Part shown: positions 22,480 through 61,637 of the stretch, one piece after another
Numbering within the stretch: the stretch's first letter is position 1
Layout of the letters: each line of letters opens with the position of its first letter
From: Candidatus Heimdallarchaeum aukensis
GTDB lineage: Archaea; Asgardarchaeota; Heimdallarchaeia; Heimdallarchaeales; Heimdallarchaeaceae
Direction: 5' to 3'
Assembly (NCBI GenBank): GCA_021513695.1
Contig: CP084166.1
Span: forward strand, 2,624,001 to 2,688,000
DNA length: 64,000 nt
Notes under the pieces: model-generated
Told to the model about the DNA's origin: nothing
What the model saw: only the letters and a program-made list of their open reading frames with translations
Databases searched by the model: none
Made by a program: the position numbers and the translations under genes

Positions 22480-22686
22480 AAATCAGAACGAGAATAGAGC
22501 AATAAAAGACTTTCTCTCCTTCTACTAGTAGATACACCAATTATATATTTAATACAATTAAGATATATATCTGATTATATCTATATTATTTTGGAAAGAG
22601 CTATACTATAATTGATTTTAGCTAAATAATCTTCTTCCTATGAAACAAATTTTAAATAGATATATGATTTTTTAAAGTAGAAGAAA

Positions 22687-23790: not shown

Positions 23791-23913
23791 AAATAATAAT
23801 TACTTTTAATTTTTTTTGCTTTTTAAATTATTATCGTTGACTTTAGGCAAAAATAAGCTTTTTCAAGTATTTTTTTGAATAAATTTTAAATCTCTAAAGC
23901 TTATTAGTTGAAT

Positions 23914-26904: not shown

Positions 26905-27237
26905 ATGAATTATACTGTCGATTATGATAAAAAAAAGAAAAAAGCGGAGTGGCCCGCTTTCATAAATATAAGTGAATGGAAACAAGAACACCCCGTAATA
27001 TATCTAATCCCAGAACGTTGCAAAGCTTGTAGTTTCTGCATAAATTACTGCCCTGAACAGATTCTTGAATTTTCTCCAGATATTAATCAAAAGGGCTATC
27101 ATCTTCCCAAACTTAAAGAGGGTAAAGACTTTTCTAACTGTGCAGAGTGTCATTTTTGTGAATTAATTTGTCCTGAATTCGCTATTTTTGTGAAGGTTCC
27201 GGAAAAACAAGACGAGGAGGAGAAACCAAGTGAGTGA
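26905..27237 (+). CDS. 2-oxoacid:ferredoxin oxidoreductase, delta (2x[4Fe-4S] ferredoxin) subunit
   Basis: Two CxxCxxCxxxCP motifs (CKACSFCINYCP, CAECHFCELICP). First gene of a D-A-B-G set. Substrate specificity (2-oxoglutarate vs pyruvate/2-ketoisovalerate) is not decidable by eye. Confidence 0.75.
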   Translation: MNYTVDYDKKKKKAEWPAFINISEWKQEHPVIYLIPERCKACSFCINYCPEQILEFSPDINQKGYHLPKLKEGKDFSNCAECHFCELICPEFAIFVKVPEKQDEEEKPSE

Positions 27238-28402
27238 AACAATTCAGAAAGAAGAAGATAGAACTGTTTTAACTGGTGAATATTTCACAACTGGAAACCT
27301 AGCTGCGGCAGAAGGCGCTTTAGCTGCTGGATGTAAGTTCTTCGGCGGTTATCCCATTACTCCCAGTTCAGAGATTGCAGAACACATGTCTTATCGTCTT
27401 CCCCAAGTTGGAGGTCATTTCCTTCAATTCGAGGATGAAATAGCTTCTATCGTATCAATTCTTGGAGCAAGTTGGGGCGGATGGAAATCTATGACTGCAA
27501 CTTCTGGTCCAGGTTACTCTTTAATGTTGGAAAATATAGGTCTAGGAATAATGACTGAAACTCCTTGTGTTATAGTTAATGTTCAACGAGGAGGTCCTTC
27601 TACTGGTTTACCAACACTAGTAGGCCAACAAGATATCCAACAAACAAGGTGGGGGTCTCATGGAGATTATGAAGTAATCGCTTTAGCACCAAATAGTGTT
27701 CAAGAATGCTTTGATTTAACTATTGTTGCTTTTAATTATGCTGAAAAATATAGGTTGCCAGTAACCTTGCTAATGGATGAAACACTTGGTCATATGAGTG
27801 AAAAGTTGATTATTCCAACAAAAGATGAAATCAAGGTTATTAATAGAAAAAAACCCAAAGATGATCCATCGATACACCTTCCCTATAAAGCAGATGACGA
27901 TCTAGTTCCTCCCATGGCTACTGCAGGGGAAGGATATCGTGTAATGACTACAGGATTAACACATGATGAACGAGGATATCCTGTTTTAAATGCGGAAACC
28001 CAAGAAAAACTTATACGAAGATTAATCGACAAAATAAGAAAAAATAAAGATGATATAATCCTGCTCGAGGAATATAAGCTCGAGGACGCAGAAATAGCGC
28101 TAATCTCTTTTGGTATAAGCGCACGTGCTTCAAAGGGTGCAATTGAGCTTGCAAGAAAGAAAGGAATAAAGGTTGGCCTTTTAAGACTTATTACTATTTG
28201 GCCGTTTGCAGATGAACAAATAGAGAAACTTGCTGAACAAGTGGGTAATATTTTTGTTGTTGAAATTAATGCAGGACAAGTTACAAGAGAGGTTCAGAGA
28301 GCTGTAAAAGGTAAAGCAGAAGTTCATGGTGTATTTAAGTATGGTGGAGCCATTCACACACCAGAAGAAATTTTGTCTGAAATCGAGAGGAGAATAAAAT
28401 GA
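27230..28402 (+). CDS. 2-oxoacid:ferredoxin oxidoreductase, alpha subunit
   Basis: GTG start preceded by GAGGAGGAG. GGYPITPSSEI and the overall PorA/KorA layout. Overlaps korD by 8 nt. Confidence 0.8.
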   Translation: MSETIQKEEDRTVLTGEYFTTGNLAAAEGALAAGCKFFGGYPITPSSEIAEHMSYRLPQVGGHFLQFEDEIASIVSILGASWGGWKSMTATSGPGYSLMLENIGLGIMTETPCVIVNVQRGGPSTGLPTLVGQQDIQQTRWGSHGDYEVIALAPNSVQECFDLTIVAFNYAEKYRLPVTLLMDETLGHMSEKLIIPTKDEIKVINRKKPKDDPSIHLPYKADDDLVPPMATAGEGYRVMTTGLTHDERGYPVLNAETQEKLIRRLIDKIRKNKDDIILLEEYKLEDAEIALISFGISARASKGAIELARKKGIKVGLLRLITIWPFADEQIEKLAEQVGNIFVVEINAGQVTREVQRAVKGKAEVHGVFKYGGAIHTPEEILSEIERRIK

Positions 28403-29259
28403 CAGATAAATTATTAAAAGCAGTAGAACATCCTTCTGATGTATTTTTAAGACCAGGGAGAATACCACATATTTGGTGTCCTGGGTGCAGTTTAGGTTCA
28501 GTAACGAACGTGATTATTGAAGCAATAAAACAAAGTGGAATTGATTCCAAAAAAATATCTATTATCTCTGGAATTGGTTGTACTGGAAGAGCTGCAGGAT
28601 ACCTAAACTTTGATTCCTTTCACACTACACATGGTAGAGCTATTCCCTTCGCAATAGGCTTAAGTGTAACTGATCCTGAAAGAAAAGTTATTGTTATTTC
28701 AGGAGATGGTGATCTAGCTTCTATCGGAGGTAATCATCTAATTCATGGAGCTAGAAGAAATGCAGATATTACAGTTATTTGTGTAAATAACTTTCAATAT
28801 GGAATGACAGGGGGGCAAGTAGGTCCTACCTCCTATGAGGGACAATTTCAAACTACTGCACCATATGGAAATGTTGAACATCCATTTGACCTACCGGGTT
28901 TGGCTTATTCATGTGGAGCAACTTTTGTAGCAAGGTGGACAGCTCTTGATGTCAGAAGAATGAAAGAGACAATTATTGAAGCAATTCTACATAAAGGATT
29001 TTCTTTTGTAGAAATATTGGGCTCATGTCCTACAACTTATGGACGAAGAAATCAATTAAGAGAAGGTTTAGAGATTTTAGAAAATTTCAGAAAGAGAACA
29101 GTATTGAAACACGGAGCTGACCCAACAAAAACAGAAATTTCCAAGGATGGACCTATAATTGTTGGAAAATTTGTTGAAATCAAAGATAAATCGACTTTAA
29201 CTGATAATTTGCTTAAAGTTCAAAGAATAGCAAAAGCGACAAAGGCAAGGGGGTTATAA
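28399..29259 (+). CDS. 2-oxoacid:ferredoxin oxidoreductase, beta (TPP-binding) subunit
   Basis: Cys ligands CPGCSLG...GIGCTGRA, and the TPP motif GDGDLASIGGNHLIHGARRNADITVICVNNFQYGMTGGQ. ATGA overlap with the alpha subunit. Confidence 0.85.
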   Translation: MTDKLLKAVEHPSDVFLRPGRIPHIWCPGCSLGSVTNVIIEAIKQSGIDSKKISIISGIGCTGRAAGYLNFDSFHTTHGRAIPFAIGLSVTDPERKVIVISGDGDLASIGGNHLIHGARRNADITVICVNNFQYGMTGGQVGPTSYEGQFQTTAPYGNVEHPFDLPGLAYSCGATFVARWTALDVRRMKETIIEAILHKGFSFVEILGSCPTTYGRRNQLREGLEILENFRKRTVLKHGADPTKTEISKDGPIIVGKFVEIKDKSTLTDNLLKVQRIAKATKARGL

Positions 29260-29262
29260 AAA

Positions 29263-29802
29263 GTGCCAAGAGTAGAAATACGTTTTGCTGGTTTTGGAGG
29301 ACAAGGTATTGGTCTTCTAGGGCGATTAGTAGGAGAGGCAATTGCTTTGTATATGGAAGGAAAAAATGCAATAATGACACAGAGCTATGGACCTGAAAGT
29401 AGAGGTGGAGCGAGTAGTTCTGATGTTGTGATTGACGAAGGAGAGATAGCCTACCCTAAAGCGACACATTACGATTATTTAGTTGTTATGTCAGAGGAAG
29501 CCTATCACAAATATATCCCAAATTTAAAAGAAGGAGGAACATTATTTGTAGAAGAGAATCTAGTTATCCTCGATGAACACGCTAAAAAAGCTGGAAAAAT
29601 CTTCAAAATTCCCGCAACTAAAATAGCAGAAGAAATAGGAAGTAGTTTATATGCTAATATAGCAATGTTGGGTTTTTTCTGTGCAAACACTGATATCGTA
29701 TCTGAGGATGCGCTAAAGAAGGTAATAAGAGAAAAAGTGAAGGCGCGGTTTGTTAAGAACAATCTTATTGCTTTCGAAAAAGGGAAAAACTATAAGGGAT
29801 GA
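29263..29802 (+). CDS. 2-oxoacid:ferredoxin oxidoreductase, gamma subunit
   Basis: 179 aa, FAGFGGQGIGLLG motif typical of the gamma subunits. GTG start. Confidence 0.75.
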   Translation: MPRVEIRFAGFGGQGIGLLGRLVGEAIALYMEGKNAIMTQSYGPESRGGASSSDVVIDEGEIAYPKATHYDYLVVMSEEAYHKYIPNLKEGGTLFVEENLVILDEHAKKAGKIFKIPATKIAEEIGSSLYANIAMLGFFCANTDIVSEDALKKVIREKVKARFVKNNLIAFEKGKNYKG

Positions 29803-31772
29803 AAAAAGAAATGGATGAGAAAAAGAAAGTTGGAGTATTTATTTGTCATTGCGGAAGAAATATCGCTCAAACTGTTGATATAGAAAAACTAATGGAAGAA
29901 GTTAGAGAAAAGTATGATGTTGAGTTTGTAGAAGATAATATGTACATGTGTTCTGATCCTGGACAAAATCTGTTAAAAGAATCAATTCAAGCAAAGAATT
30001 TAGATCGAGTAATTGTTGCTGCTTGCTCTAGAGATATGCATGAACCAACATTTAGAAGTGCAGCACAAGAAGCTGGTTTAAATCCGTATTTAGTCGAAAT
30101 TGCTAATATTAGAGAACAAGTCAGTTGGGTTCATGATGATAAAGAAAAAGCCACAGAAAAAGCTTCAAAGATTATCGGTTCAACAATCGAAAAAGTAGTA
30201 AGAGATGAACCTTTAGAACCTCTACAAATTCCAGTTGTTCAAAGAGCATTAGTTATTGGTGGTGGAATAGCAGGAATTCAAGCTGCTCTTGACATCGCTG
30301 ATGCAGGATATGAAGTGACTCTAGTTGAAAAATCTCCTACTATTGGAGGACACATGGCACAATTAGCTGAAACATTTCCCACTTTGGATTGTAGTCAATG
30401 TATTTTAACACCAAAAATGGTTGCATTAAGTCGCCATCCAAAAATTAATTTGCTGACAACCAGTGAAGTTGTAAGTGTAGAAGGTTATGTGGGAAATTTC
30501 AAAGTACAGATAAGAAAAAATCCAAGGTATGTTGATGTTGATAAATGTAATCTCTGTGATGATTGTACAGCTGTATGTCCTGTAGTTGTTCATGATGAAT
30601 ACAATCAGGGTTTAGCTCCAAGGAAAGCTATCTACATTCCATTTCCGCAAGCTGTTCCTGCATCATATGTGATTGACGAAGCAACTTGTTTGGGAATTGA
30701 CCCTCTAATTTGTTCTAAATGTAAAGATGTTTGTTTAGTTGAAGCAATAGACTTTGATATGCAACCAGAAATTATTGAAGAAGAATTTGGCGCCATAGTT
30801 GTAGCTACTGGGTATGATATCTATCCAATAGAAAATATAGGAGAATATGGGTATGGTTCCCATCCAGATATTATATCTGGATTAGATTTTGAAAGGTTAT
30901 TATCTGCAAATGGACCTACACAAGGAGTTATAAGAAGACCTTCAGACGGAAAGATTCCAAAAACCGTAGTTTTTGTTCATTGTGCTGGTTCAAGAGACCC
31001 TGCTAAACATTTACCTTATTGTTCCAAGATTTGTTGTATGTATTCTACTAAACACGCTTTGCAGTATAAACATCTTGTTCATGATGGTACTGCAATCAAC
31101 TTTTATATTGATGTAAGAACAGCAGGAAAAGATTACGAAGAATTCTATAAACGAGCAGCAGAAGAAGAGCAAGTGATTTATGTTCGAGGAAAAGTCTCAG
31201 AGATAATAGAAGATGGAGATCAGCTTCTAGTTAAAGGTGTGGATACATTATTAGGGGAAGCAGTAGAAGTTCATGCTGATCTAGTGGTTCTAGCTACAGG
31301 ACTAGTTCCAAGTAAAGGAACACAGGAAATCTCACATCTTTTGAAGTTATCTTGTGATAGTAAAGGATTTCTAAAAGAAGCACATCCAAAGTTAAAACCT
31401 GTTGAATCAGCTCTATCGGGTATTTTTATTGCTGGAACTGCTTCCGGACCAAAAGATATCCCCGAGACTGTTGCCCAAGCTTCTGGAGCGGCAGCAAAAG
31501 CTGCAACGATTCTGGCCTCTGAATATCTTGAACGAGAACCTCAAATTGCTCAAGTAGACCCAACAACCTGTGGTGTATGTCATACTTGTATTCATGTTTG
31601 TCCATATGGCGCAATTTATCTAGATGAGGTTGTAGGAAGAATAACTGTTCGAGAAGCATTATGCGAAGGATGTGGAAGTTGTGCAGCAGCTTGTCCTTCT
31701 GGTAGCATTGAATTAAAGAACTCTACTTCTGAAGGAATTAGAGCGAGAATTAAAGCATTATTGCAAGGGTGA
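29799..31772 (+). CDS. hdrA: Heterodisulfide reductase subunit A (FAD, multiple [4Fe-4S])
   Basis: FICHCGRNIA N-terminal Cys cluster, FAD-binding GGGIAGIQAALDIADAGYEVTLVEKSPTIGG and four CxxCxxCxxxCP ferredoxin motifs. ATGA overlap with the preceding gene. Confidence 0.85.
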   Translation: MKKEMDEKKKVGVFICHCGRNIAQTVDIEKLMEEVREKYDVEFVEDNMYMCSDPGQNLLKESIQAKNLDRVIVAACSRDMHEPTFRSAAQEAGLNPYLVEIANIREQVSWVHDDKEKATEKASKIIGSTIEKVVRDEPLEPLQIPVVQRALVIGGGIAGIQAALDIADAGYEVTLVEKSPTIGGHMAQLAETFPTLDCSQCILTPKMVALSRHPKINLLTTSEVVSVEGYVGNFKVQIRKNPRYVDVDKCNLCDDCTAVCPVVVHDEYNQGLAPRKAIYIPFPQAVPASYVIDEATCLGIDPLICSKCKDVCLVEAIDFDMQPEIIEEEFGAIVVATGYDIYPIENIGEYGYGSHPDIISGLDFERLLSANGPTQGVIRRPSDGKIPKTVVFVHCAGSRDPAKHLPYCSKICCMYSTKHALQYKHLVHDGTAINFYIDVRTAGKDYEEFYKRAAEEEQVIYVRGKVSEIIEDGDQLLVKGVDTLLGEAVEVHADLVVLATGLVPSKGTQEISHLLKLSCDSKGFLKEAHPKLKPVESALSGIFIAGTASGPKDIPETVAQASGAAAKAATILASEYLEREPQIAQVDPTTCGVCHTCIHVCPYGAIYLDEVVGRITVREALCEGCGSCAAACPSGSIELKNSTSEGIRARIKALLQG

Positions 31773-31777
31773 GAATA

Positions 31778-32242
31778 ATGAGTACATCAAAGCAAGAACA
31801 AGAATCAGGTATAAAAAACCCAGATCCTAAGATTGTCCTTTTCTTATGCCGATGGTGTTCAGGAAAGGGAGCAGATCTAGCAGGAACGTCAAGATTAAGT
31901 TATCCTCCCAATGTTTTACCAATAATGGTAAATTGTACATCAAGAATTGATCCAAGATTTGTAGTAGAAGCTTTTCTTGATGGAGCTGATGGTGTTCTAG
32001 TGACTGGCTGTCACTTTGGTGATTGTCACTATAAGACTGGTAATTACAAAGCATATAGACGTCTTTCGCTAGTCGCAAAGTTGTTAAAACAAGTTGGGGT
32101 AAATCCTAAGAGATTTAGATTGACTTGGATATCAGCTACAGAAGCAGCAAAATTCGTAGAAGTGACTACAGAGATGGTAAATGATCTGAAAAAACTTCCT
32201 CCTTACTGGAGAAATGGAAATGGAGGTAATACCAATGAATAA
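31778..32242 (+). CDS. mvhD: Methyl-viologen-reducing hydrogenase delta subunit
   Basis: ILFLCRWCSGKGADLAG...VTGCHFGDCHY, the MvhD/FlpD family Cys pattern. The ATG at 31778 lies downstream of the track's GTG. Confidence 0.8.
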   Translation: MSTSKQEQESGIKNPDPKIVLFLCRWCSGKGADLAGTSRLSYPPNVLPIMVNCTSRIDPRFVVEAFLDGADGVLVTGCHFGDCHYKTGNYKAYRRLSLVAKLLKQVGVNPKRFRLTWISATEAAKFVEVTTEMVNDLKKLPPYWRNGNGGNTNE

Positions 32243-33233
32243 ATTAAAGGTTGCAGTGGCTCTTGGCGCAACTTGTGCAGGTTGTGACGTGGCTATCTTA
32301 GATTTGAATGAAAAAATACTAGATGTTATAGAGATAGTAGATTTTGTTTTCTGGCCAACAGCTATGGATTTCAAGCTTGAAGATCTAAAGGCATTAAAAG
32401 ATGGTGAAGTAGACGTAGGTTTATACCATGGAGCTATAGGTACAGAAGAAGATGAAGAAATAGCAAAAATATTAAGAAAGAAGTCGAAAGTAGTAGTGGC
32501 CTTTGGAGCTTGTGCTAATTTTGGTGGGATACCAAGTCTAACAAATATGCCTTATGAATCAAAAATATTCGATGTGGTTTATAAGGAAAGTCCATCTACT
32601 TCAAATCCTGAAGGAACTGTACCTCTAAAAGAAACAGAGGTAGAAGGAACAAAGTTGACTTTACCTGGAATTAGAAAAAGAGCAGATTCTTTGAATAGTG
32701 TTATCGATGTAGATTATTACGTTCCAGGCTGTCCTCCTATGGTTCCTTTGATAGAACAAGTGGTAGACATTTTGAGAGTTTTTGTTGAAAAAGGAACTTT
32801 ACCTCCTAAAGGAGCTGTTATCGCTGGGCAAGATACACTATGTAAGGAATGCGGAAGAACTAAACCAGAAACCATCTCTTACACAGAGTTTCTCTCTCCA
32901 CAAGAAGTGAAAGAGATTGACCCTGACCTTTGTCTTCTATCACAAGGAATTTTGTGTTTAGGACCAGCAACACGTTCTGGTTGTGGAGGATTATGCACAA
33001 GCATGAATGTTGGTTGTAGAGGATGTTTAGGACCAACAGATAAAGTTGATGATCATGGTCTAAAAATGATTTCAGCTCTAACATCACTTTTGGACGTAGA
33101 GCATGAAGAAGAGTATACAGAAGAGGAACTAGATAAATTAATAGAAAAAATCCCAGACCCATTAGGAACATTTTATCGATTTACTTATGGAGTCTCCATG
33201 ATCTCTAAATTACATCCTGATATGGAGGAATAA
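32235..33233 (+). CDS. mvhG: [NiFe] hydrogenase small subunit (F420-non-reducing, Mvh-type)
   Basis: VAVALGATCAGCDVAILD proximal-cluster Cys motif and further Cys clusters. GGAGGT SD 7 nt upstream of the ATG at 32235. The track ORF starts at an in-frame ATG at 32214. Confidence 0.8.
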   Translation: MNKLKVAVALGATCAGCDVAILDLNEKILDVIEIVDFVFWPTAMDFKLEDLKALKDGEVDVGLYHGAIGTEEDEEIAKILRKKSKVVVAFGACANFGGIPSLTNMPYESKIFDVVYKESPSTSNPEGTVPLKETEVEGTKLTLPGIRKRADSLNSVIDVDYYVPGCPPMVPLIEQVVDILRVFVEKGTLPPKGAVIAGQDTLCKECGRTKPETISYTEFLSPQEVKEIDPDLCLLSQGILCLGPATRSGCGGLCTSMNVGCRGCLGPTDKVDDHGLKMISALTSLLDVEHEEEYTEEELDKLIEKIPDPLGTFYRFTYGVSMISKLHPDMEE

Positions 33234-33235
33234 AA

Positions 33236-34723
33236 ATGAATCAAAAATTAAATCCAAATATCGTGACTATTGAGCCAGTCACAAGATTAGAAGGATTAGC
33301 AAAAATAACAGTACTTCTTAATGATGAAGGAAATGTAAAAGATGCTTTTTATCAAGTAGTAGAACTCAGAGGTTTTGAGCGTTTTGTTCAAGGAAGACCA
33401 ATTGAGGAAGTATTGAGAATCACACCAAGAATATGTGGTGTATGCCCCATACCTCATCATCTTGCACCAGCAAAAGCAGCAGATAGGGTATATGGGGTCG
33501 ACCCTCCTAAAACTGCAAAATTATTAAGAGAAATGCTAGCTTTGGGACATATTGTTCATAGCCATATTTTGCATTTCTATGCTTTTGCTCTTCCTGATTT
33601 TGTACTAGGAGAAAAGAAAGAACCAGGAACGCATAACATAATTGGTATAGCAAAAGCATTTCCTGATGTGGCGAAAGCTGCCATTAAAGCAAGAGGAGAT
33701 GCCCAAAAAATACAAGCAATGATTGGTGCAAAAGCAACTCATCCTGTTACTGTAATTCCAGGAGGAATAAGTAAAGGAGTAACGAAGGAAGATACAGAAA
33801 AGATATTAGAAATGAGCAAGAATATCGTTGAATTCGGTAAACTGGGTCTTAAGGTCTTTGAAGATTTAGTAGTTAAAAATAAAGATCAAATGGATCTTAT
33901 AAACAGTGACGCCTATCAGATGGATACCTATTATATGTCAATTGTAGGCCCCGATAATACGCTCGATTTCTATAATAGTCAAACAGTTAGAGTAATTGAC
34001 AGTAAAGGAAAAGAATTTGCAAAATTTGAAGCAGAAGATTATTTAGACCATTTAGATGAACATGTTGAACCATGGACATATCTCAAGTTCCCCTATTTGA
34101 AAAAGGTAGGTTGGAAGGGACTTGTTGATGGACCGGATAGTGGTATGTATAGAGTAAATGCTTTAGCACGATTGAACGTTATAGATAAGATAACAACACC
34201 TCTCGCCCAAGAAGCAATGGAAATTATGTATGAAGGTCTAGGTGGAAAACCTGCTCATCACACTTTAGGTTTTAACTGGGCTAGGTTAGTGGAAATACTA
34301 TACAGCGGTGAGAGAATGGTTGAACTAGCTGAAGATCCTGACTTTTATGGTACAAAGTTCAGAGAACAGCTAACCAAGGATATGATTACAGGTGAAGGGG
34401 TGGGAGCCATAGAAGCACCAAGAGGAACTTTATATCATCACTATAAGACTGATAAAGAAGGAAAAGTAACCAAAGCTAATATCATAGTAGCAACCACCAA
34501 CAATAATGCTGCGATTTGTTTAAGTGTGAAAAAAGCCGCTCAAGAAATGATTAAAAACGGTCAGTATAATGAGGATGGCTTAAATAAAATAGAGATGGCT
34601 TTTAGAGCTTATGACCCTTGTTTAGCATGTGCTACCCACGCCATGGTTGGACAAATGCCACTGAAAGTAGAAATATATGATTCTAAGAAAAATAAGATTA
34701 GAGAGTTGACACGTAAACTATGA
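33236..34723 (+). CDS. mvhA: [NiFe] hydrogenase large subunit (group 3c, Mvh-type)
   Basis: N-terminal RICGVCPIPHH (RxCGxC) and C-terminal DPCLACATH (DPCxxCxxH) nickel-binding motifs. A C-terminal extension after the His is consistent with protease processing. Confidence 0.85.
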   Translation: MNQKLNPNIVTIEPVTRLEGLAKITVLLNDEGNVKDAFYQVVELRGFERFVQGRPIEEVLRITPRICGVCPIPHHLAPAKAADRVYGVDPPKTAKLLREMLALGHIVHSHILHFYAFALPDFVLGEKKEPGTHNIIGIAKAFPDVAKAAIKARGDAQKIQAMIGAKATHPVTVIPGGISKGVTKEDTEKILEMSKNIVEFGKLGLKVFEDLVVKNKDQMDLINSDAYQMDTYYMSIVGPDNTLDFYNSQTVRVIDSKGKEFAKFEAEDYLDHLDEHVEPWTYLKFPYLKKVGWKGLVDGPDSGMYRVNALARLNVIDKITTPLAQEAMEIMYEGLGGKPAHHTLGFNWARLVEILYSGERMVELAEDPDFYGTKFREQLTKDMITGEGVGAIEAPRGTLYHHYKTDKEGKVTKANIIVATTNNNAAICLSVKKAAQEMIKNGQYNEDGLNKIEMAFRAYDPCLACATHAMVGQMPLKVEIYDSKKNKIRELTRKL

Positions 34724-35226
34724 AAATAGCAATTATCGGCCTGGGAAACCCCATTGTTGGGGATGATGCTGTCGGAATAAGAGTCTTAGATTACATAAAA
34801 GAGAATAAGACTCTTCCTTCCTTTGTAGACATAATGGTCGATGTAAGCCTTTCTGGAATAGGTTTAGTTGAACTATTCAGAGGATATGACAAAGTGATAA
34901 TAATTGATTCTATGCAATCTAATCAATTTGAACCAGGTACAGTTCTAAGACTCAACCCTGACCAATTTGTAAGTGCATTACACGTTTCAGATTATCATAA
35001 TATGGACTTTTTTACTGCTTACGAATTCGGTAAAGAGATATATGATGATTTACCACCAAATGAACAAATTGTTATCCTCGGAATTGAGATTAATTATATT
35101 ACTGAATTTAGCGATCAGCTATCTCCAGAAATAAAGTCAAAATTTGATGATATTGTAAATGATGTTTATCAATTTATTAAAAAAGAAATAAATCAAGAGA
35201 AGGAGATTATACGCAATGTCCTTTGA
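34720..35226 (+). CDS. Hydrogenase maturation endopeptidase (HycI/HybD/FrhD family)
   Basis: IAIIGLGNPIVGDDAVGIRV N-terminal motif. 168 aa. ATGA overlap with mvhA. Confidence 0.7.
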   Translation: MKIAIIGLGNPIVGDDAVGIRVLDYIKENKTLPSFVDIMVDVSLSGIGLVELFRGYDKVIIIDSMQSNQFEPGTVLRLNPDQFVSALHVSDYHNMDFFTAYEFGKEIYDDLPPNEQIVILGIEINYITEFSDQLSPEIKSKFDDIVNDVYQFIKKEINQEKEIIRNVL

Positions 35227-35629
35227 ATATATAAAAATAGGAAAAGAAGAAAAAGAATTCATTAGTAAAATAGAAGATATCAGCGGACAGAATCTATATG
35301 CATGTTATCAATGTGGAAAATGTACCGCTGGATGTTCTTTTAGTAATCAGATGGATCTTACAGTAAACCAAGTTATTCATAGATTACAACTTGGGCAAAA
35401 AGAAAAAGTGCTGAGTGCAAAGAGTCCTTGGGTATGTGCGAGTTGTTTGACTTGTACAGTTAGATGCCCACGAGATATTGACGTAGCTGCAATAATGGAG
35501 TCAGTAAGAGAATACATTCTACGTTATGAACCTGAGAGAATAGAAAGAATGAAAGTTACAGGAGAAAAAGCTAAAAACTTGCCTAACATTGCCCTCGTAG
35601 GTAGTTTTAGGAAGAATACTGAATTATAA
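35216..35629 (+). CDS. hdrC: Heterodisulfide reductase subunit C-like (2x[4Fe-4S])
   Basis: CYQCGKCTAGCSF and CASCLTCTVRCP motifs. Confidence 0.7.
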   Translation: MSFEYIKIGKEEKEFISKIEDISGQNLYACYQCGKCTAGCSFSNQMDLTVNQVIHRLQLGQKEKVLSAKSPWVCASCLTCTVRCPRDIDVAAIMESVREYILRYEPERIERMKVTGEKAKNLPNIALVGSFRKNTEL

Positions 35630-35641
35630 TAGGTGAATTAA

Positions 35642-36532
35642 ATGAAATATTCATATTTTCCAGGATGTAATCTCAAAACAAATGCAAAGGAATATGAACA
35701 TACAGCTGTTGAAGTTTCTAAAATATTAGATGCTGAACTTGTAGAAATGCCAGTGTTTAATTGCTGTGGGACAGTTCATAGTATGGCTTCAGATAATACT
35801 ATGAGGAGAATCGCCCCTGTACGTATTCTTTCAAGATCAGAAGAGCACCAAAAAGAGTTGGAAGATACAAATAACACAGTTGTAACTCTATGTTCCATGT
35901 GTAGTTCAACACTTAAAGTAGTAAATGAAGAAGTAAAAGAAGATGAAGAAATGCTACAGAAAATAAACTGGCAGCTAGAAAGAGATAACTTAAAATATTC
36001 TGGCCATTCGGAAGTCAAACACTATTTAGAAATACTTAGAGATGAAGTTGGTTTTGAAGAAATTGTTAAAAAGGTTAAAAAACAACTTAAAGGAATGAAA
36101 GTTGCTTCTTATTACGGTTGCATGCTGTTACACCCAGATAAAGCTAAAATTGATGACAGCGAAACACCAACAGTGATGGAAACCCTTACCCTTGCACTCG
36201 GAGCAGAAGTAGTTGATTGGCCTTATTTTAAAACTTGTTGCGGTTCTTACCATGTAGTAGACAAAGAAGATATCGTAAACAATCAAATTCTAAAAATAAC
36301 GGAGGGTGCTAAAAAAAGAGGAGCTAATGCTATAATTACTGCTTGTCCTTTATGTGCCTATAATCTTGATAGTCAGCAAGTATTTTTACAGAAAAAAGGA
36401 ATAATAAAAGAAACTATACCTATCTTCTACTTTACTCAACTTATGGCAATAGCTCTAGGAATAAAATTAGAAAATTTTGAAGATCATCATGTAGATCCTA
36501 AACCTTTACTAAAAAGTCTAGGATTAATTTAA
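35642..36532 (+). CDS. hdrB: Heterodisulfide reductase subunit B-like (two CCG domains)
   Basis: PGC...NCCGT and YYGC...CCGS...CPLC arrangement characteristic of the HdrB/GlpC/SdhE CCG domain. Confidence 0.75.
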   Translation: MKYSYFPGCNLKTNAKEYEHTAVEVSKILDAELVEMPVFNCCGTVHSMASDNTMRRIAPVRILSRSEEHQKELEDTNNTVVTLCSMCSSTLKVVNEEVKEDEEMLQKINWQLERDNLKYSGHSEVKHYLEILRDEVGFEEIVKKVKKQLKGMKVASYYGCMLLHPDKAKIDDSETPTVMETLTLALGAEVVDWPYFKTCCGSYHVVDKEDIVNNQILKITEGAKKRGANAIITACPLCAYNLDSQQVFLQKKGIIKETIPIFYFTQLMAIALGIKLENFEDHHVDPKPLLKSLGLI

Positions 36533-36549
36533 AAAAAAGAGGAATAAAA

Positions 36550-37272
36550 ATGGCAAAAGCAATATCAATGAGAGAAAAAAAGGAAAAACTTGACACAGTA
36601 ACCATATATATTATGGGTCAAGGATACAAAGTTCCTTCTTCTTTAACCATAATGAAAGCAATGGAATATGCTGGTTTTAAACTTAAAAGAGGAGTCGGTT
36701 GTCGTGCAGGTTTTTGTGGAGCATGTGCAACCGTTTATAGAAAATTAGGTGATTACAAAATATATGCTAACTTAGCATGTCAAACTAAAGTCGAAGATGG
36801 GATGTATCTCACACAATTACCTTTTGTTCCTGCTAATAAAGCAGAATACAATCTTGACGAGATTAAACCTTCAGCTTCAACAATGCTCCGTTTCTATCCA
36901 GAAATAGCAAGATGCTTAAGCTGTAATGCTTGTTCAAGAGTGTGCCCACAAGATATACAAGTAATGGACTATGTTCAATACAGCTTGCAAGGGCAAATAG
37001 AAAAAGCAGCAGAACTAGCTTTTGATTGTATTCAATGCGGTCTTTGCGCAATTCGTTGCCCAGCAGAGATTCCTCAATATCATGTGGCGACATTGGCACG
37101 AAGATTACATGGTAAATATCATATGATTGCTCCTGATACTCTAGAACAAAGAGTAAAGGAAATAGAAGAAGGAAAATACGAAAAAGGATTTGAAGAGTTG
37201 ATGTCTCTATCTGAAGAAGAATTGAAGAAACGATACGTTGCAAGAGACTTTATTGATCAGAAAAAGGCGTGA
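36550..37272 (+). CDS. Succinate dehydrogenase/fumarate reductase iron-sulfur subunit-like protein (2Fe-2S plus 2x[4Fe-4S])
   Basis: GCRAGFCGACA (plant-ferredoxin-like cluster as in SdhB), then CLSCNACSRVCP and CIQCGLCAIRCP. Confidence 0.65.
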   Translation: MAKAISMREKKEKLDTVTIYIMGQGYKVPSSLTIMKAMEYAGFKLKRGVGCRAGFCGACATVYRKLGDYKIYANLACQTKVEDGMYLTQLPFVPANKAEYNLDEIKPSASTMLRFYPEIARCLSCNACSRVCPQDIQVMDYVQYSLQGQIEKAAELAFDCIQCGLCAIRCPAEIPQYHVATLARRLHGKYHMIAPDTLEQRVKEIEEGKYEKGFEELMSLSEEELKKRYVARDFIDQKKA

Positions 37273-37277
37273 GAAAA

Positions 37278-38936
37278 ATGATTAGAGGATATCCAGAAAG
37301 TATGAGAAAAAGTATTGACAAAGTCAATAAAACAAGAGATAAGAGAATCGACCAAATTATGAAAGATTTGACTCTTGAAGAACGTGAGAAAGTATTAAAG
37401 GAATTTCACCCTGATTATAATCCAGCATATAAAAGAACTATAAGTTGGGGACAAAATAAAGGCGATTATGTTCCTAATGAAGTCGCAGATATACTGGAAT
37501 CATACCCAATCTATGATCCAGATGAGATAGATTTAAGTCAAATAGATTACGATGTTGGAATATTAATTATTGGTGCAGGAGGAGCTGGAACAGCTGCTGC
37601 TTTATGGTCTGTTTATTCTGGAGTGCCAAATGATAAGATCCTTCTAACAACTAAATTAAGGCTGGGAGACTGTAATACAGTTATGGCACAAGGAGGGATA
37701 CAAGCTGCTGATAGACCAGAAGATTCACCTTTAATTCATTATTTAGATGCTATGGGTGGAGGACACTTCAAAAATAAACCAGAGTTAGTAAAAGCACTTG
37801 TTTCAGATGGTCCCAAAATAATCAAATGGCATAAAGAACTAGGTTTAATGTACGATCAGAATGAAGATGGAAGTTTTGTAGAAAATGCTGGAGGAGGAAC
37901 ATCTAGAAACAGAATGCACTGCGCAAAAGATTATACAGGAATGGAAATTTTCAGAAATCTAAAAGATGAAGTTATTAACAATGAGATACCTTTATTGGAA
38001 TTTTCACCTGCAGTAGAATTGCTAAAAGATGAAAATGGAAGAGTAGCTGGTGCATTGTTATATAATCTAGAAACAAAAGAATATTCCGTCGTAAGAGCAA
38101 AAACAACCATTTTAACAACAGGAGGTTTTGGAAGATTACACATCGCAGGATTTGCAACAACAAATCACTATGGGGCAACAGGAGACGGAATAGTTATGGC
38201 TTATAGAGCAGGAGCTAAACTAAGAGATTTAGACTCAACACAGTTCCACCCAACAGGAGCAGCTTTCCCTGAACAAATAGTAGGTCTGTTAATTACTGAA
38301 AAAGTAAGAAGTTTAGGAGCACAAGTTTTAGGAAAGAATGGAGAACAAATCTGCTATCCACTAGAACCAAGAGATGTAGAGGCTGCTTCAATAATAAGAG
38401 TAACAAAAAGTACAGATAATTATGTTGAAACTCCAACAGGAATGAGAGGAGTCTGGTTAGATAGTCCATTAATTGAAGAAATCAGAGGAAAGGGAACAAT
38501 TGATAAGAATCTTGCTGCAATGAAAAGAATGTTTGCAAGGTTTGATATTGACATGACAGAAGATCCCATACTTGTTCATCCAACCCTTCATTATCAGAAT
38601 GGAGGAGTGGAACTCGATGAAAATGGATATACTTCTGTACCAGGTTTACTAGGCGCAGGTGAAATAAGCGGAGGAGTACATGGAAAGAATCGTCTTATGG
38701 GTAACTCTCTGCTTGAGGTCAATGTTTTCGGTAGACGAGCAGGTATAACTGCTGCTAAAGAATATAAACGAGGTAAAAAACCAGGCAAACTTACTTTATC
38801 ACATGTAAAGAAAACTATTGAGCAATTAGATGCTCTAAACATTAAGAAAAAACGCTTTTCACCTATCATTCTTCCAGAATATCGTAGTGAAGCAGTAAGA
38901 GACAGATTAATTCAACTATTTGAATCTAGTCTCTAA
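37278..38936 (+). CDS. Fumarate reductase/succinate dehydrogenase flavoprotein-family FAD oxidoreductase (TfrA/L-aspartate-oxidase-like), probably non-covalent FAD
   Basis: GILIIGAGGAGTAAAL dinucleotide fold. CNTVMAQGG sits where SdhA has the His that binds FAD covalently (Cys here). HYQNGGV active-site region. ~90-aa N-terminal extension. The ATG at 37278 lies downstream of the track's GTG. Confidence 0.75.
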   Translation: MIRGYPESMRKSIDKVNKTRDKRIDQIMKDLTLEEREKVLKEFHPDYNPAYKRTISWGQNKGDYVPNEVADILESYPIYDPDEIDLSQIDYDVGILIIGAGGAGTAAALWSVYSGVPNDKILLTTKLRLGDCNTVMAQGGIQAADRPEDSPLIHYLDAMGGGHFKNKPELVKALVSDGPKIIKWHKELGLMYDQNEDGSFVENAGGGTSRNRMHCAKDYTGMEIFRNLKDEVINNEIPLLEFSPAVELLKDENGRVAGALLYNLETKEYSVVRAKTTILTTGGFGRLHIAGFATTNHYGATGDGIVMAYRAGAKLRDLDSTQFHPTGAAFPEQIVGLLITEKVRSLGAQVLGKNGEQICYPLEPRDVEAASIIRVTKSTDNYVETPTGMRGVWLDSPLIEEIRGKGTIDKNLAAMKRMFARFDIDMTEDPILVHPTLHYQNGGVELDENGYTSVPGLLGAGEISGGVHGKNRLMGNSLLEVNVFGRRAGITAAKEYKRGKKPGKLTLSHVKKTIEQLDALNIKKKRFSPIILPEYRSEAVRDRLIQLFESSL

Positions 38937-39642
38937 AGTCTTTAACGACTATTTTCTTTTTTTCCATCTCTTTTTCTAATAATCTTATTGGAAATATTTT
39001 TCCATGTGAAGGATAAAGCCATTTTACACCTTCATCTATTAGTTTTTTCCAACTTTCGTATATCTTTTCCTTTTTATTTGCGACTATAGGAAAATAGCTT
39101 CTTCCTGAAAGCAAAGGAAACTTCATAACTATGTCTCCTACAAAAGCATGTTTTTGTTTAAAAATTAATGAAATTGAACCATCAGTATGACCTAATGTAT
39201 GAATTATCTTAGCATCAAATCCATATTCTTTTAGGGAAAATTCATCACTTACTTTAATATCAACAGAAAAAGGAGCTATCTCACGCTTTGTAGAAGAAAA
39301 AATCTTCTTAAGCAATTTATTAGTTAAAACTGCTTCTGGTGTATCTCCCTTTTCCACTAATTCAGCCTCTATTTTGTGCATTAAGACTTTTGCTCCTGTA
39401 ATCTCTTTTATCTCTTTTACAGAACCAATATGGTCTATATGTGCATGTGTAATGATAATTAGCTTGATATTTTCTGGTTGAATAGAATTTTTTTGTAAAA
39501 AATGAACTATCTTTTTATGACTTTTTGGCATTCCTGTATCAACTAAAATACAATTATTATTCTCTTTTATTAGAAAACTATTGACATAACCCAATTTTAT
39601 TCTATGGATAGAAACCATACTTACCAAAGAAAGTTCTTGCAT
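38926..39642 (-). CDS. Metallo-beta-lactamase-fold hydrolase
   Basis: IIITHAHIDHIG (HxHxDH) motif and further His/Asp ligands. 3' end overlaps the flavoprotein gene convergently by 11 nt. Confidence 0.65.
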   Translation of the reverse strand: MQELSLVSMVSIHRIKLGYVNSFLIKENNNCILVDTGMPKSHKKIVHFLQKNSIQPENIKLIIITHAHIDHIGSVKEIKEITGAKVLMHKIEAELVEKGDTPEAVLTNKLLKKIFSSTKREIAPFSVDIKVSDEFSLKEYGFDAKIIHTLGHTDGSISLIFKQKHAFVGDIVMKFPLLSGRSYFPIVANKKEKIYESWKKLIDEGVKWLYPSHGKIFPIRLLEKEMEKKKIVVKDFRD

Positions 39643-41310
<1,668 letters not shown>

Positions 41311-61414: not shown

Positions 61415-61637
61415 TCTCAACTTTAATCGTCTAAGTATTCGTATTTTTACTTAAAAGATTATGCTTGTGTTCTTTCTCCAAATTTGAAAAAACAACCTTT
61501 TTTTGCAAGTGTAACTGTTTCAAAGAATTGATTTTCCTATCTAGAGGACCAATCAGTTATTTTTTTTTAAGAAATCCTAATTTGTTATTGTTTCTCTTGC
61601 GAAAGTTTAAAAATGTAAATTTGCTCTTTTCATTGAA

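What the first reader, a model, noticed from the sequence alone, without database searches (positions are those of the whole stretch)
35216..38936. HdrC-HdrB-like module joined to SdhB/SdhA-like subunits: a thiol:fumarate-reductase-like (Tfr) arrangement with non-covalent FAD
Established knowledge: in Methanothermobacter, thiol:fumarate reductase TfrAB combines a fumarate reductase flavoprotein with a subunit containing HdrB-type CCG domains. Here four separate genes supply the same parts: HdrC-like 2x[4Fe-4S], HdrB-like with two CCG domains, an SdhB-like FeS protein with a 2Fe-2S motif GCRAGFCGACA, and an SdhA/FrdA-family flavoprotein in which the His that binds FAD covalently is replaced (CNTVMAQGG). 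Non-covalent FAD is typical of soluble fumarate reductases and L-aspartate oxidase and favours fumarate reduction over succinate oxidation. The flavoprotein has an unusual ~90-aa N-terminal extension. The physiological acceptor is unknown (fumarate, another enoate, or a heterodisulfide-like thiol).
Basis: partly seen in the sequence, partly recalled or inferred. Interest (0 to 1): 0.5.

Follow-up and report, generated by a model that had tools for sequence, protein, structure and literature searches.

The report
Hydrogenase–Hdr-linked fumarate reductase operon
The four genes are real and form the fumarate-reducing end of a 13-gene Asgard-archaeal operon that also encodes a hydrogenase, HdrA and a 2-oxoacid:ferredoxin oxidoreductase, which suggests that fumarate, not an unknown disulfide, is what this archaeal Mvh–Hdr complex reduces.

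Summary
Window 35216-38936 encodes four proteins: an HdrC-like protein (2x[4Fe-4S]), an HdrB-like protein (two CCG motifs, 10 invariant Cys), an SdhB-like protein ([2Fe-2S] plus two 4-Cys motifs), and an SdhA/FrdA-type flavoprotein. All dicarboxylate-site residues are intact in the flavoprotein. The covalent-FAD His is replaced by Asn136, the usual C-terminal domain is missing, and there is a conserved family-specific 95-aa N-terminal domain.

These are the last four genes of a tightly packed 13-gene operon (26905-38936): KorDABG, HdrA, MvhD/G/A, protease, HdrC, HdrB, SdhB, SdhA. The window is from Ca. Heimdallarchaeum aukensis.

Among 124 related loci with enough upstream flank, 114 carry an HdrB-like gene. 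The donor module swaps between Mvh hydrogenase and FlxABCD. Kor, fumarase and malate dehydrogenase recur in shuffled gene orders. In gut Lachnospiraceae, 49 of 49 informative loci hold HdrABC, FlxABCD and fumarase next to the pair, and 48 of 49 also hold MDH.

Best reading: an HdrA-based, H2-driven, probably electron-bifurcating fumarate reductase. It is not a thiol-driven TfrAB; the TfrA and TfrB models score far below their cut-offs. It is a hydrogenase variant of the proposed but biochemically unproven Flx-Hdr fumarate reductase. Interest is moderate.

The parts
26905..27237 (+). 2-oxoacid:ferredoxin oxidoreductase delta (ferredoxin-like) subunit, 110 aa
   Evidence: Best NCBIfam hit is OGOR_delta, below its cut-off. 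ORF listed. Overlaps KorA by 8 bp.
27230..28402 (+). OFOR alpha subunit (Kor-like)
   Evidence: POR_N and PFOR_II. PRK08659 scores 573 bits, above its cut-off of 411; the next best hit is 2-oxoglutarate synthase alpha.
28399..29259 (+). OFOR beta subunit (TPP-binding)
   Evidence: TPP_enzyme_C. Best NCBIfam hit is 2-oxoglutarate ferredoxin oxidoreductase beta, 245 bits, below its cut-off.
29263..29802 (+). OFOR gamma subunit
   Evidence: PF01558 POR; PRK08537.
29799..31772 (+). HdrA, the FAD/FeS subunit that is the bifurcating flavoprotein in methanogen Hdr
   Evidence: Full-length match to solved HdrA 8rvu_a, E 8.7e-208. HdrA2/HdrA NCBIfam models score 819 and 653 bits, below their equivalog cut-offs.
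31769..32242 (+). MvhD (FlpD) [2Fe-2S] connector subunit
   Evidence: PF02662, 1.9e-49.
32214..33233 (+). [NiFe] hydrogenase small subunit, MvhG/VhuG-like
   Evidence: PF01058; VhuG model 179 bits.
33236..34723 (+). [NiFe] hydrogenase large subunit, MvhA/VhuA-like
   Evidence: PF00374; VhuA model 400 bits. The RICGVC and DPCLACATH motifs are visible in the translation.
34720..35226 (+). Hydrogenase maturation endopeptidase
   Evidence: PF01750 HycI; TIGR00072 scores 95 bits, above its cut-off of 47.
35216..35629 (+). HdrC-like 2x[4Fe-4S] protein, C-terminally shortened (137 aa against about 184)
   Evidence: Matches residues 10-102 of HdrC 8rvv_C, E 3.8e-18. Fer4_8 and Fer4_17.
35642..36532 (+). 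HdrB-like protein with two CCG motifs (two predicted non-cubane [4Fe-4S] clusters)
   Evidence: NCBIfam scores tie between MFR SdhE (152 bits) and HdrB TIGR03288 (148 bits), both below their cut-offs.
36550..37272 (+). SdhB/FrdB-like FeS subunit: [2Fe-2S] plus two 4-Cys motifs, with a C-terminal helical tail
   Evidence: Alignment with E. coli SdhB/FrdB. Cys51/56/59/77, Cys122/125/128/132 and Cys160/163/166/170. Cys163 is the extra ligand that 3Fe-4S-type SdhB lacks.
37269..38936 (+). Fumarate reductase flavoprotein: residues 1-95 are a family-specific N-terminal domain, followed by FAD and capping domains; there is no C-terminal domain and no covalent-FAD His (probable start ATG 37278)
39949..41310 (+). 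NADP-type glutamate dehydrogenase (neighbour; possibly linked through 2-oxoglutarate)
   Evidence: PRK09414 scores 749 bits, above its cut-off of 536. GDH also lies next to the flavoprotein gene in L005, L154 and L168.

Best explanation
The four genes encode the high-potential acceptor arm of an HdrA-based soluble redox complex that reduces fumarate to succinate. Proposed path: the Mvh [NiFe] hydrogenase oxidises H2. Electrons pass through MvhD to the FAD of HdrA. One branch runs HdrC (2x[4Fe-4S]) -> HdrB (two CCG clusters) -> SdhB-like ([4Fe-4S]x2, [2Fe-2S]) -> non-covalent FAD of the flavoprotein -> fumarate. The other branch reduces ferredoxin by flavin-based electron bifurcation, with fumarate (E0' about +30 mV) taking the role that CoM-S-S-CoB plays in methanogens. 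The co-transcribed Kor-like 2-oxoacid:ferredoxin oxidoreductase is the likely user of the reduced ferredoxin (succinyl-CoA + CO2 -> 2-oxoglutarate, then glutamate through the neighbouring GDH). Together this would be a hydrogen-driven stretch of the reductive TCA branch, or a quinone-free fumarate sink. Shown here: gene content, cofactor motifs, an intact fumarate site, and conserved linkage. Inferred: physical complex formation, the order of clusters in the wire, bifurcation, the direction of the reaction, and the Kor substrate.
For: (1) Fumarate site. All catalytic and dicarboxylate-binding residues of SdhA/FrdA are invariant in the family. The best structural matches are E. coli FrdA and M. 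smegmatis SdhA, TMq 0.63-0.66. (2) Linkage to Hdr. 114 of 124 related loci with at least 3.5 kb upstream carry an HdrB-like gene. All 5 informative Heimdall loci and all 49 informative Firmicutes loci carry HdrA, HdrB, HdrC and MvhD/FlxD. The gene set persists through many rearrangements, for example L162 (SdhBA-KorDABG-HdrACB-MvhGA) and L147 (FumAB-MvhGA-HdrCB-HdrA-MvhD-SdhBA). (3) The donor module is interchangeable while the acceptor arm is constant. Mvh is present here, in a Loki MAG (L089), in Thermoplasmata (L003) and in 7 informative metagenome loci. FlxABCD is present in 4 of 5 informative Heimdall loci that are 78-80% identical to this one, and in all informative Firmicutes loci. (4) Substrate supply. 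Fumarase alpha and beta occur in 49 of 49 informative Lachnospiraceae loci and malate dehydrogenase in 48 of 49; an Asp-Al_Ex permease homologue occurs in 28 of 49. FumAB also occurs in several metagenome loci. (5) Kor is co-located in Heimdall, Loki, Thermoplasmata, Acetothermia and 11 of 16 informative metagenome loci. (6) Direction. The covalent-FAD His is Asn throughout the family. From established knowledge, loss of the covalent bond in FrdA/SdhA abolishes succinate oxidation but leaves fumarate reduction. (7) All 13 genes are separated by at most 17 bp or overlap. (8) Literature. The same idea was proposed, without biochemistry, for Flx-Hdr plus fumarate reductase in Pseudoclostridium thermosuccinogenes (PMC7282089) and for kor-tfrAB-flx-hdr clusters in tubeworm symbionts (PMC6315080, PMC13147460).
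Against: There is no biochemical evidence for any member of this family. Synteny does not prove a physical complex. Methanofastidiosia and Theionarchaea carry only the four-gene module, with no HdrA within about 8 kb or about 2 kb upstream respectively, so the module may work without HdrA there. HdrB keeps all ligands of the disulfide-reducing clusters, so a small thiol/disulfide intermediate cannot be excluded. No fumarase or succinyl-CoA synthetase was identified among the window ORFs that were scanned. The Kor subunits best match 2-oxoglutarate enzymes but score below the substrate-specific cut-offs. Two related loci pair SdhBA with a NuoEF-GltD-like protein instead of Hdr.
Confidence: 0.6

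Rival explanations
1. A split thiol:fumarate reductase. HdrB oxidises a pair of low-molecular-weight thiols. Electrons pass (through HdrC and/or directly) to the SdhB-like protein and the flavoprotein, which reduces fumarate. Mvh-HdrA then re-reduces the resulting disulfide at the same or another HdrB site, so that a thiol/disulfide couple shuttles between the two activities.
For: TfrB is in effect an SdhB-like::CCG-domain fusion, and TfrA is the best-scoring NCBIfam model for the flavoprotein. All 10 CCG cysteines are conserved. The four-gene module stands alone in Methanofastidiosia, a methanogen lineage expected to hold CoM-SH and CoB-SH, and in Theionarchaea. Asgard papers annotate such genes as thiol:fumarate reductase (PMC9723677).
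Against: The TfrA and TfrB models score far below their cut-offs (309 against 718; 44 and 31 against 385). HdrC, which in solved Hdr complexes wires HdrB to HdrA, is always present although a thiol-driven enzyme would not need it. The operon has only one HdrBC pair to serve both proposed activities. The same family in Lachnospiraceae is embedded in Flx-HdrABC, and these bacteria are not known to make CoM or CoB (my knowledge, not tested). Papers on Asgard and Culexarchaeia genomes report that the disulfide substrate is unidentified or that the CoM/CoB pathways are incomplete (PMC11291895, PMC9723716).
Confidence: 0.15
2. The complex runs in reverse as an electron-confurcating, H2-evolving succinate dehydrogenase. 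Reduced ferredoxin from Kor (glutamate -> 2-oxoglutarate -> succinyl-CoA) and electrons from succinate are merged at HdrA and released as H2 by Mvh. This would allow syntrophic amino-acid oxidation.
For: Kor and an NADP-type GDH flank the genes. Papers on Asgard archaea describe Mvh-Hdr as an H2-evolving confurcating complex in syntrophic amino-acid degraders (PMC9723677). My own estimate is that the reaction becomes feasible at about 0.1-3 Pa H2 with a low fumarate/succinate ratio.
Against: The covalent-FAD His is absent from the whole family; from established knowledge this disables succinate oxidation. The standard potentials are unfavourable (donors average about -230 mV against -414 mV for H2). 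In Lachnospiraceae the context (MDH, fumarase, exporter-like permease) points to the reductive direction. In P. thermosuccinogenes the operon is linked to succinate production (PMC7282089).
Confidence: 0.12
3. The flavoprotein acts on a substrate other than fumarate, such as L-aspartate (NadB-like), another enoate, or a sulfur compound, and its proximity to Hdr has a different cause.
For: The flavoprotein reaches no curated family cut-off. NadB models score nearly as well as SdhA/FrdA models (261 against 256 bits). The architecture is unusual: a new N-terminal domain and no C-terminal domain.
Against: The full set of dicarboxylate and catalytic residues is invariant. The NadB Glu121 position is Gly208. 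An SdhB-like [2Fe-2S] partner gene is always adjacent; NadB has no such partner (established knowledge). Fumarase and MDH are co-located in 49 of 49 and 48 of 49 informative Lachnospiraceae loci.
Confidence: 0.05

Closest known systems
Proposed Flx-Hdr-dependent fumarate reductase: the 'succinate operon' of Pseudoclostridium thermosuccinogenes (Koendjbiharie and van Kranenburg, preprint 2019, cited in PMC7282089), and the kor-tfrAB-flxABCD-hdrABC clusters of Ca. Endoriftia and Thioflavicoccus (PMC6315080)
   Same: A two-subunit soluble SdhAB-like fumarate reductase is encoded with HdrABC and an MvhD/FlxD connector, often with fumarase and/or Kor. The proposed mechanism is also the same: bifurcation to fumarate and ferredoxin. 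Close Heimdall relatives of this locus (78-80% identical flavoprotein) carry FlxABCD at the same position.
   Different: In this window the NAD(P)H-dehydrogenase module FlxABC is replaced by a [NiFe] hydrogenase (MvhG, MvhA and a protease), so the donor would be H2. The host is an Asgard archaeon. None of these systems has been characterised biochemically, as far as the searchable library shows.
MvhADG-HdrABC, the H2:CoM-S-S-CoB/ferredoxin oxidoreductase of methanogens (PDB 5odc, 8rvu)
   Same: HdrA matches at full length with E 8.7e-208. MvhD, MvhG, MvhA, HdrC and HdrB are all present, with their cluster ligands.
   Different: HdrB scores only 117 bits against solved HdrB and falls below the TIGR03288 cut-off (148 against 345). 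HdrC lacks about 45 C-terminal residues. Two extra subunits (SdhB-like and flavoprotein) are co-transcribed directly downstream, so the terminal acceptor is probably fumarate rather than a heterodisulfide.
Thiol:fumarate reductase TfrAB of Methanothermobacter
   Same: A soluble fumarate reductase that combines an SdhA-type flavoprotein, SdhB-type FeS clusters and HdrB-type CCG clusters. TfrA is the best-scoring NCBIfam model.
   Different: The FeS and CCG parts are separate proteins here, and an HdrC is added. The flavoprotein lacks the last ~120 positions of the TfrA model and has a 95-aa N-terminal domain. Scores are far below the cut-offs. The context points to HdrA and H2 rather than thiols as the donor.
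Type E succinate:quinone oxidoreductases / MFR (SdhABEF, MfrABE)
   Same: An SdhAB pair works with an HdrB-like CCG protein. The SdhE model ties with HdrB as the best NCBIfam hit for the HdrB-like protein (152 bits). The SdhB-like protein has a 4-Cys motif where classical SdhB binds a 3Fe-4S cluster.
   Different: There is no covalent-FAD His and no SdhF-like partner. HdrC and HdrA are present. No family cut-off is reached.

Membership tests
Thiol:fumarate reductase TfrAB | TfrA-type flavoprotein (NCBIfam NF004900 equivalog, cut-off 718 bits) | tested here: not met
   309 bits. Only model positions 7-425 of 546 are matched, by residues 95-521.
Thiol:fumarate reductase TfrAB | TfrB: one polypeptide with [2Fe-2S], two [4Fe-4S] and two CCG domains (NF004898, cut-off 385 bits) | tested here: not met
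   The parts are split over two proteins that score 43.6 and 31.4 bits. An additional HdrC-like protein is present.
Thiol:fumarate reductase TfrAB | Uses CoM-SH plus CoB-SH as electron donor | not testable with these tools
   Needs an enzyme assay. The context (HdrA, Mvh) suggests another donor.
MvhADG-HdrABC heterodisulfide reductase | HdrA with FAD and FeS domains, plus MvhD, MvhG and MvhA with NiFe ligand motifs | tested here: met
   HdrA against 8rvu_a, E 8.7e-208, full length. FlpD, Oxidored_q6 and NiFeSe_Hases. RICGVC and DPCLACATH motifs.
MvhADG-HdrABC heterodisulfide reductase | HdrB with two CCG motifs and HdrC with two [4Fe-4S] clusters | tested here: met
   10 invariant Cys and two CxxCxxCxxxC motifs. 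However, HdrB (148 bits, cut-off 345) and HdrC (66 bits, cut-off 160) are below the equivalog cut-offs.
MvhADG-HdrABC heterodisulfide reductase | CoM-S-S-CoB is the terminal acceptor | not testable with these tools
Flx/Mvh-Hdr-linked soluble fumarate reductase (proposed, uncharacterised) | SdhA/SdhB-like pair encoded with hdrA, hdrB, hdrC and mvhD/flxD | tested here: met
   Met in the window, and 114 of 124 related loci with enough upstream flank hold an HdrB-like gene.
Flx/Mvh-Hdr-linked soluble fumarate reductase (proposed, uncharacterised) | FlxABC NAD(P)H-dehydrogenase donor module | tested here: not met
   MvhG, MvhA and a protease replace it in the window. It is present in Heimdall relatives L006-L016 and in all informative Firmicutes loci.
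Flx/Mvh-Hdr-linked soluble fumarate reductase (proposed, uncharacterised) | Sequence orthology to the P. thermosuccinogenes or Endoriftia fumarate reductase | not tested
The gene order in Lachnospiraceae relatives (seven Flx-Hdr genes, then two FR genes, fumarase, transporter-like gene) resembles the published description (PMC7282089).
SdhA/FrdA fumarate reductase / succinate dehydrogenase flavoproteins | Catalytic and dicarboxylate residues (SdhA H242, T254, E255, R286, H354, R399) | tested here: met
   H327, T343, E344, R368, H441 and R475 are invariant.
SdhA/FrdA fumarate reductase / succinate dehydrogenase flavoproteins | Covalent 8-alpha-N3-histidyl FAD (SdhA H45) and the C-terminal helical domain (PF02910) | tested here: not met
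   The His position is Asn136. There is no PF02910 hit, and the alignment ends about 130 residues before the end of SdhA.
L-aspartate oxidase NadB | TIGR00551 equivalog (cut-off 452.75 bits); Glu121; no FeS partner | tested here: not met
   261 bits. The Glu121 position is Gly208. An SdhB-like partner gene is always adjacent. The role of Glu121 is from my recollection of the NadB literature.
Type E SQR / MFR (SdhE/MfrE anchor) | NF042965 SdhE equivalog (cut-off 500 bits) and NF042982 flavoprotein (cut-off 1100 bits) | tested here: not met
   152 and 185 bits.

The most novel reading that the evidence does not exclude
In Asgard archaea (and in Thermoplasmata relatives) the unidentified acceptor of the Mvh-HdrABC complex is fumarate. 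The 13-gene operon would then encode one H2:fumarate/ferredoxin oxidoreductase that passes its bifurcated low-potential electrons straight to a co-encoded 2-oxoglutarate synthase. This would be a quinone-free, membrane-free, hydrogen-driven segment of the reductive TCA cycle in close relatives of the eukaryotic ancestor, with a donor port (Mvh or Flx) that lineages exchange.
Probability: 0.35. Interest if true: 0.75.

Novelty: new variant of a known kind. Interest (0 to 1): 0.55.

Why it matters
Genomic papers on Asgard archaea and other non-methanogens report that Mvh-HdrABC reduces 'an unidentified heterodisulfide', and some note that these organisms lack complete CoM/CoB pathways (PMC11291895, PMC9723716). 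This locus and its 160-odd relatives offer a concrete, testable acceptor: fumarate. That would change hydrogen and energy budgets in metabolic models of Asgard archaea, which feed into syntrophy-based scenarios of eukaryogenesis. It would also add fumarate to the short list of high-potential acceptors that drive flavin-based bifurcation. The same acceptor arm occurs in cultured human and mouse gut Lachnospiraceae (Schaedlerella, Dorea, Blautia, Mediterraneibacter), where it could account for quinone-independent succinate formation. These strains make biochemical tests feasible. The caveat is that everything beyond gene content, motifs and synteny is inference.

Tried and rejected
1. NadB or another non-fumarate substrate. 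Rejected on the active-site alignment, the Glu121 position and the obligatory FeS partner.
2. Type E complex II / MFR. Considered because the SdhE model ties as best hit for the HdrB-like protein. Rejected: no covalent His, HdrC and HdrA are present, and scores fall far below the cut-offs.
3. AprAB/Qmo-like. Considered because the HdrC-like protein hits the QmoC N-terminus (61 bits against a cut-off of 300). No Apr-type hits appeared for the flavoprotein, so this was dropped.
4. The N-terminal extension as a known or mobile domain. phmmer against 1.84 billion representatives gave 317 hits. Almost all place it at a protein's N-terminus, many of them on truncated fragments, so it appears specific to this family. 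A few long proteins with repeated partial hits look like chance matches.
5. The sequence search of the SdhB-like protein against the PDB found only generic ferredoxin domains. Its homology to SdhB rests on the alignment of Cys ligands.
6. Literature. No biochemical characterisation of any Hdr-linked fumarate reductase was found, and no description of the Mvh variant. Miura et al. 2008 on the Hydrogenobacter NADH-FRD could not be read.
7. Not attempted: a phylogeny that includes authentic TfrA (no sequence available), and complex modelling (only single window or database proteins may be submitted for structure prediction).
8. The bacterial promoter/terminator scan was not run because the host is an archaeon.

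Full report
**Origin and observation**

The flavoprotein is 100% identical to a protein of Candidatus Heimdallarchaeum aukensis encoded on a 3.08-Mb contig, so the window is Asgard-archaeal DNA with about 30% G+C.

All four ORFs named in the finding exist on the + strand at the stated coordinates.
- The HdrC-like protein (137 aa) has two CxxCxxCxxxC motifs. It matches residues 10-102 of solved HdrC chains but lacks about 45 residues of their C-terminus.
- The HdrB-like protein (296 aa) matches solved HdrB from end to end (1.3e-32). It has two Pfam CCG repeats. The ten cysteines of the two CCG motifs are invariant across seven family members from archaea and bacteria.
- The SdhB-like protein (240 aa) aligns with E. 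coli SdhB and FrdB at the [2Fe-2S] ligands (Cys51/56/59/77). It carries two complete CxxCxxCxxxCP motifs. The extra Cys163 predicts a [4Fe-4S] cluster where classical SdhB has a [3Fe-4S] cluster.
- The flavoprotein (555 aa from GTG 37269; 552 aa from ATG 37278 in the public record) has only the PF00890 FAD_binding_2 domain.

**The flavoprotein**

I aligned it with E. coli SdhA, FrdA and NadB, whose DNA I fetched and translated, and mapped positions by script.
- SdhA H242, T254, E255, R286, H354 and R399 correspond to H327, T343, E344, R368, H441 and R475. All are invariant in a 36-sequence family alignment.
- The covalent-FAD histidine (SdhA H45) is Asn136, also invariant.
- The position of NadB Glu121 is Gly208. 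As I recall the NadB literature, Glu121 is the residue specific to L-aspartate oxidases.
- The protein stops about 130 residues before the end of SdhA, FrdA and NadB, so the C-terminal helical domain is missing.
- In its place there is a 95-residue N-terminal domain. It is present at full length in relatives that are 50-96% identical, from Asgard archaea, Theionarchaea, Methanofastidiosia, Thermoplasmata, Acetothermia and Lachnospiraceae.
- AlphaFold2 models this domain with confidence (block pLDDT 81-96; whole model 82).
- A search with the domain alone against 1.84 billion representative proteins found 317 proteins. Almost all carry it at their N-terminus, so it is specific to this family.
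- Foldseek places the rest of the model with E. coli FrdA and M. smegmatis SdhA (TMq 0.63-0.66).
- No curated family cut-off is reached. TfrA scores 309 bits against a cut-off of 718, NadB 261 against 453, and SdhA/FrdA 256 against 567.

**Context in the window**

The four genes are the 3' end of a 13-gene array on the + strand, 26905-38936. The order is OFOR delta, alpha, beta and gamma; HdrA; MvhD; MvhG; MvhA; a hydrogenase maturation protease; HdrC; HdrB; SdhB-like; flavoprotein. Neighbouring genes overlap or are at most 17 bp apart.
- HdrA matches methanogen HdrA structures at E 8.7e-208 over its full length.
- MvhA shows both NiFe ligand motifs.
- The OFOR alpha subunit passes the PRK08659 cut-off. 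The delta, beta and alpha subunits have 2-oxoglutarate enzymes as best or second-best matches, below the substrate-specific cut-offs.
- An NADP-type glutamate dehydrogenase follows, after a convergent MBL-fold gene.

**Comparative evidence**

I collected 170 loci: look-ups of six homologues, a scan of species-representative genomes, a scan of metagenomes, and three E. coli reference loci that were excluded from the synteny analysis. I annotated all ORFs with phmmer, using the window proteins plus Flx, fumarase, MDH and permease queries taken from two of the loci.
- Of 124 loci with at least 3.5 kb upstream of the flavoprotein gene, 114 contain an HdrB-like gene. The immediate order HdrC-HdrB-SdhB-SdhA occurs in 45, and FlxB-FlxA-SdhB-SdhA in 61.
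- I counted a locus as informative if it had at least 8 kb upstream and 6 kb downstream. All 5 informative Heimdall loci have HdrA, HdrC, HdrB, MvhD and Kor. One has MvhGA and four have three genes with FlxC, FlxB and FlxA domain content.
- All 49 informative Firmicutes loci have HdrABC, FlxABCD and fumarase alpha and beta. 48 of 49 have a malate/lactate-dehydrogenase-family gene, and 28 have a homologue of the Asp-Al_Ex permease.
- Of 16 informative metagenome loci, 14 have HdrA, 13 HdrB, 11 Kor, 7 Mvh, 3 Flx and 2 fumarase.
- Gene order is heavily permuted. Examples are SdhBA-KorDABG-HdrA-HdrCB-MvhGA, FumAB-MvhGA-HdrCB-HdrA-MvhD-SdhBA, and MvhGA-HdrCB-SdhBA-KorDAB-FumAB. Retention of the same gene set through such rearrangement argues for functional coupling.
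- A Lokiarchaeota MAG has the same gene order as the window (its stored flank begins within KorA), and a Thermoplasmata contig has the same order without the protease.
- In Methanofastidiosia and Theionarchaea the four-gene module stands without HdrA or a donor module nearby.
- Two loci pair SdhBA with a NuoEF-GltD-like fusion instead.

**Interpretation**

1. *The substrate is fumarate.* The catalytic site is complete. An SdhB-like [2Fe-2S] partner gene is always adjacent. Fumarase and MDH are the commonest metabolic neighbours.
2. *The electron source is HdrA rather than free thiols.* HdrC's known role is to wire HdrB to HdrA, and HdrC always accompanies the module. HdrA and MvhD/FlxD co-occur with it in nearly all loci. 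The donor module (Mvh or Flx) is exchanged between close relatives while the HdrCB-SdhBA arm stays constant.
3. *Fumarate is a plausible high-potential acceptor for bifurcation.* From established potentials, fumarate/succinate is about +30 mV and CoM-S-S-CoB about -140 mV, so fumarate is more favourable than the methanogen acceptor. H2 (-414 mV) could then reduce fumarate and ferredoxin (about -500 mV in vivo) with roughly -70 kJ per 2 H2. This figure is my estimate.
4. *The direction is reductive.* The whole family lacks the covalent-FAD histidine. In FrdA and SdhA, loss of that bond removes succinate oxidation but not fumarate reduction (established knowledge).
5. *The co-transcribed Kor-like OFOR and the nearby GDH suggest where the reduced ferredoxin goes.* The route would be reductive carboxylation of succinyl-CoA to 2-oxoglutarate, then glutamate. 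Methanogens use this same reductive branch with TfrAB (established knowledge). Alternatively, the ferredoxin feeds membrane complexes for energy conservation.

The steps that are shown are gene content, ligands, the active site and synteny. Complex formation, cluster order, bifurcation, direction and Kor specificity are inferred.

**Comparison with what is known**

- The idea of an Hdr-linked bifurcating fumarate reductase exists. A 'succinate operon' of fumarase, Flx-Hdr, fumarate reductase and a putative transporter has been described for Pseudoclostridium thermosuccinogenes, with transcript data (PMC7282089, which cites a 2019 preprint).
- kor-tfrAB-flxABCD-hdrABC clusters have been described in tubeworm symbionts and Thioflavicoccus (PMC6315080; repeated in PMC13147460).
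- I found no biochemical proof and no description of a hydrogenase-containing version.
- Asgard papers either leave the Mvh-Hdr acceptor 'unidentified' (PMC11291895) or annotate a CoM/CoB-dependent thiol:fumarate reductase (PMC9723677).
- The locus is therefore best filed as a new, H2-linked, archaeal variant of a proposed but uncharacterised kind. It is not a member of TfrAB, canonical heterodisulfide reductase, type E complex II or NadB.

**Verdict**

Confidence in the separate claims:
- fumarate reduction: about 0.85;
- functional coupling to HdrA and Mvh: about 0.7;
- bifurcation to ferredoxin: about 0.55;
- the combined statement: 0.6.

Interest is 0.55. The locus gives a concrete, testable answer to the open question of what Hdr complexes reduce in non-methanogens, but the general concept has already been proposed for bacteria and nothing here is biochemical.

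Noticed in passing
window 42811-55365 (-) and 41395-42801 (-): A 4184-aa ORF begins with a topoisomerase VI B module (HATPase_c, Topo-VIb_trans, residues ~38-518). About 3,600 further residues follow, with weak helix-hairpin-helix-type hits (RAD51D_N, RNA_pol_A_CTD) and a C-terminal tandem repeat (TTKKTTTTKTKRPS, three copies). Topo VI A/Spo11 lies directly downstream. This is an extremely large Topo VI B fusion.
   Followed up: partly
window 17895-18770 (+) and 25852-26490 (-): Two Arf/Ras-family small GTPase genes, which are typical Asgard 'eukaryotic signature' proteins. The second is transcribed divergently from the operon's first gene.
   Followed up: no
window 38926-39642 (-); L008 12317-13027 (+): An MBL-fold hydrolase gene (weak glyoxalase II-like hits) overlaps the 3' end of the flavoprotein gene by 11 bp in convergent orientation. 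A homologous MBL gene also follows the cluster in another Heimdall MAG, so the neighbourhood may be conserved.
   Followed up: no
L138 11764-17600 (-), and a similar arrangement in L168: In two metagenome loci the SdhB/SdhA-like pair has no Hdr genes nearby. It lies beside a 1025-aa NuoE/NuoF-GltD-like fusion, a 2Fe-2S/4Fe-4S protein and a glutamate-synthase-like protein. This may be a third, NAD(P)H-type donor arrangement.
   Followed up: partly
L088 7987-11650; L090 2208-5827: In Methanofastidiosia and Theionarchaea the HdrC-HdrB-SdhB-SdhA module stands alone, with no HdrA, Mvh, Flx or Kor genes nearby. In those lineages it could work with an HdrA encoded elsewhere, or as a true thiol:fumarate reductase.
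   Followed up: partly
L001 9686-10810: In an Acetothermia MAG, HdrA is fused to MvhD (796 aa), and an extra HdrD-like gene (Fer4 plus CCG, 374 aa) follows the flavoprotein gene.
   Followed up: no
window 37269 / 37278: The ORF finder starts the flavoprotein at GTG 37269 (555 aa). The public annotation and the family alignment favour ATG 37278 (552 aa).
   Followed up: yes
window 21132-22502 (-), 23908-24693 (+), 60008-61420 (-): Other metabolic genes in the window: an FAD-dependent oxidoreductase (FAD_oxidored/GIDA-like), a Sir2-family deacetylase and a pyruvate kinase. No fumarase, malate dehydrogenase or succinyl-CoA synthetase was identified among the window ORFs that were scanned.
   Followed up: no
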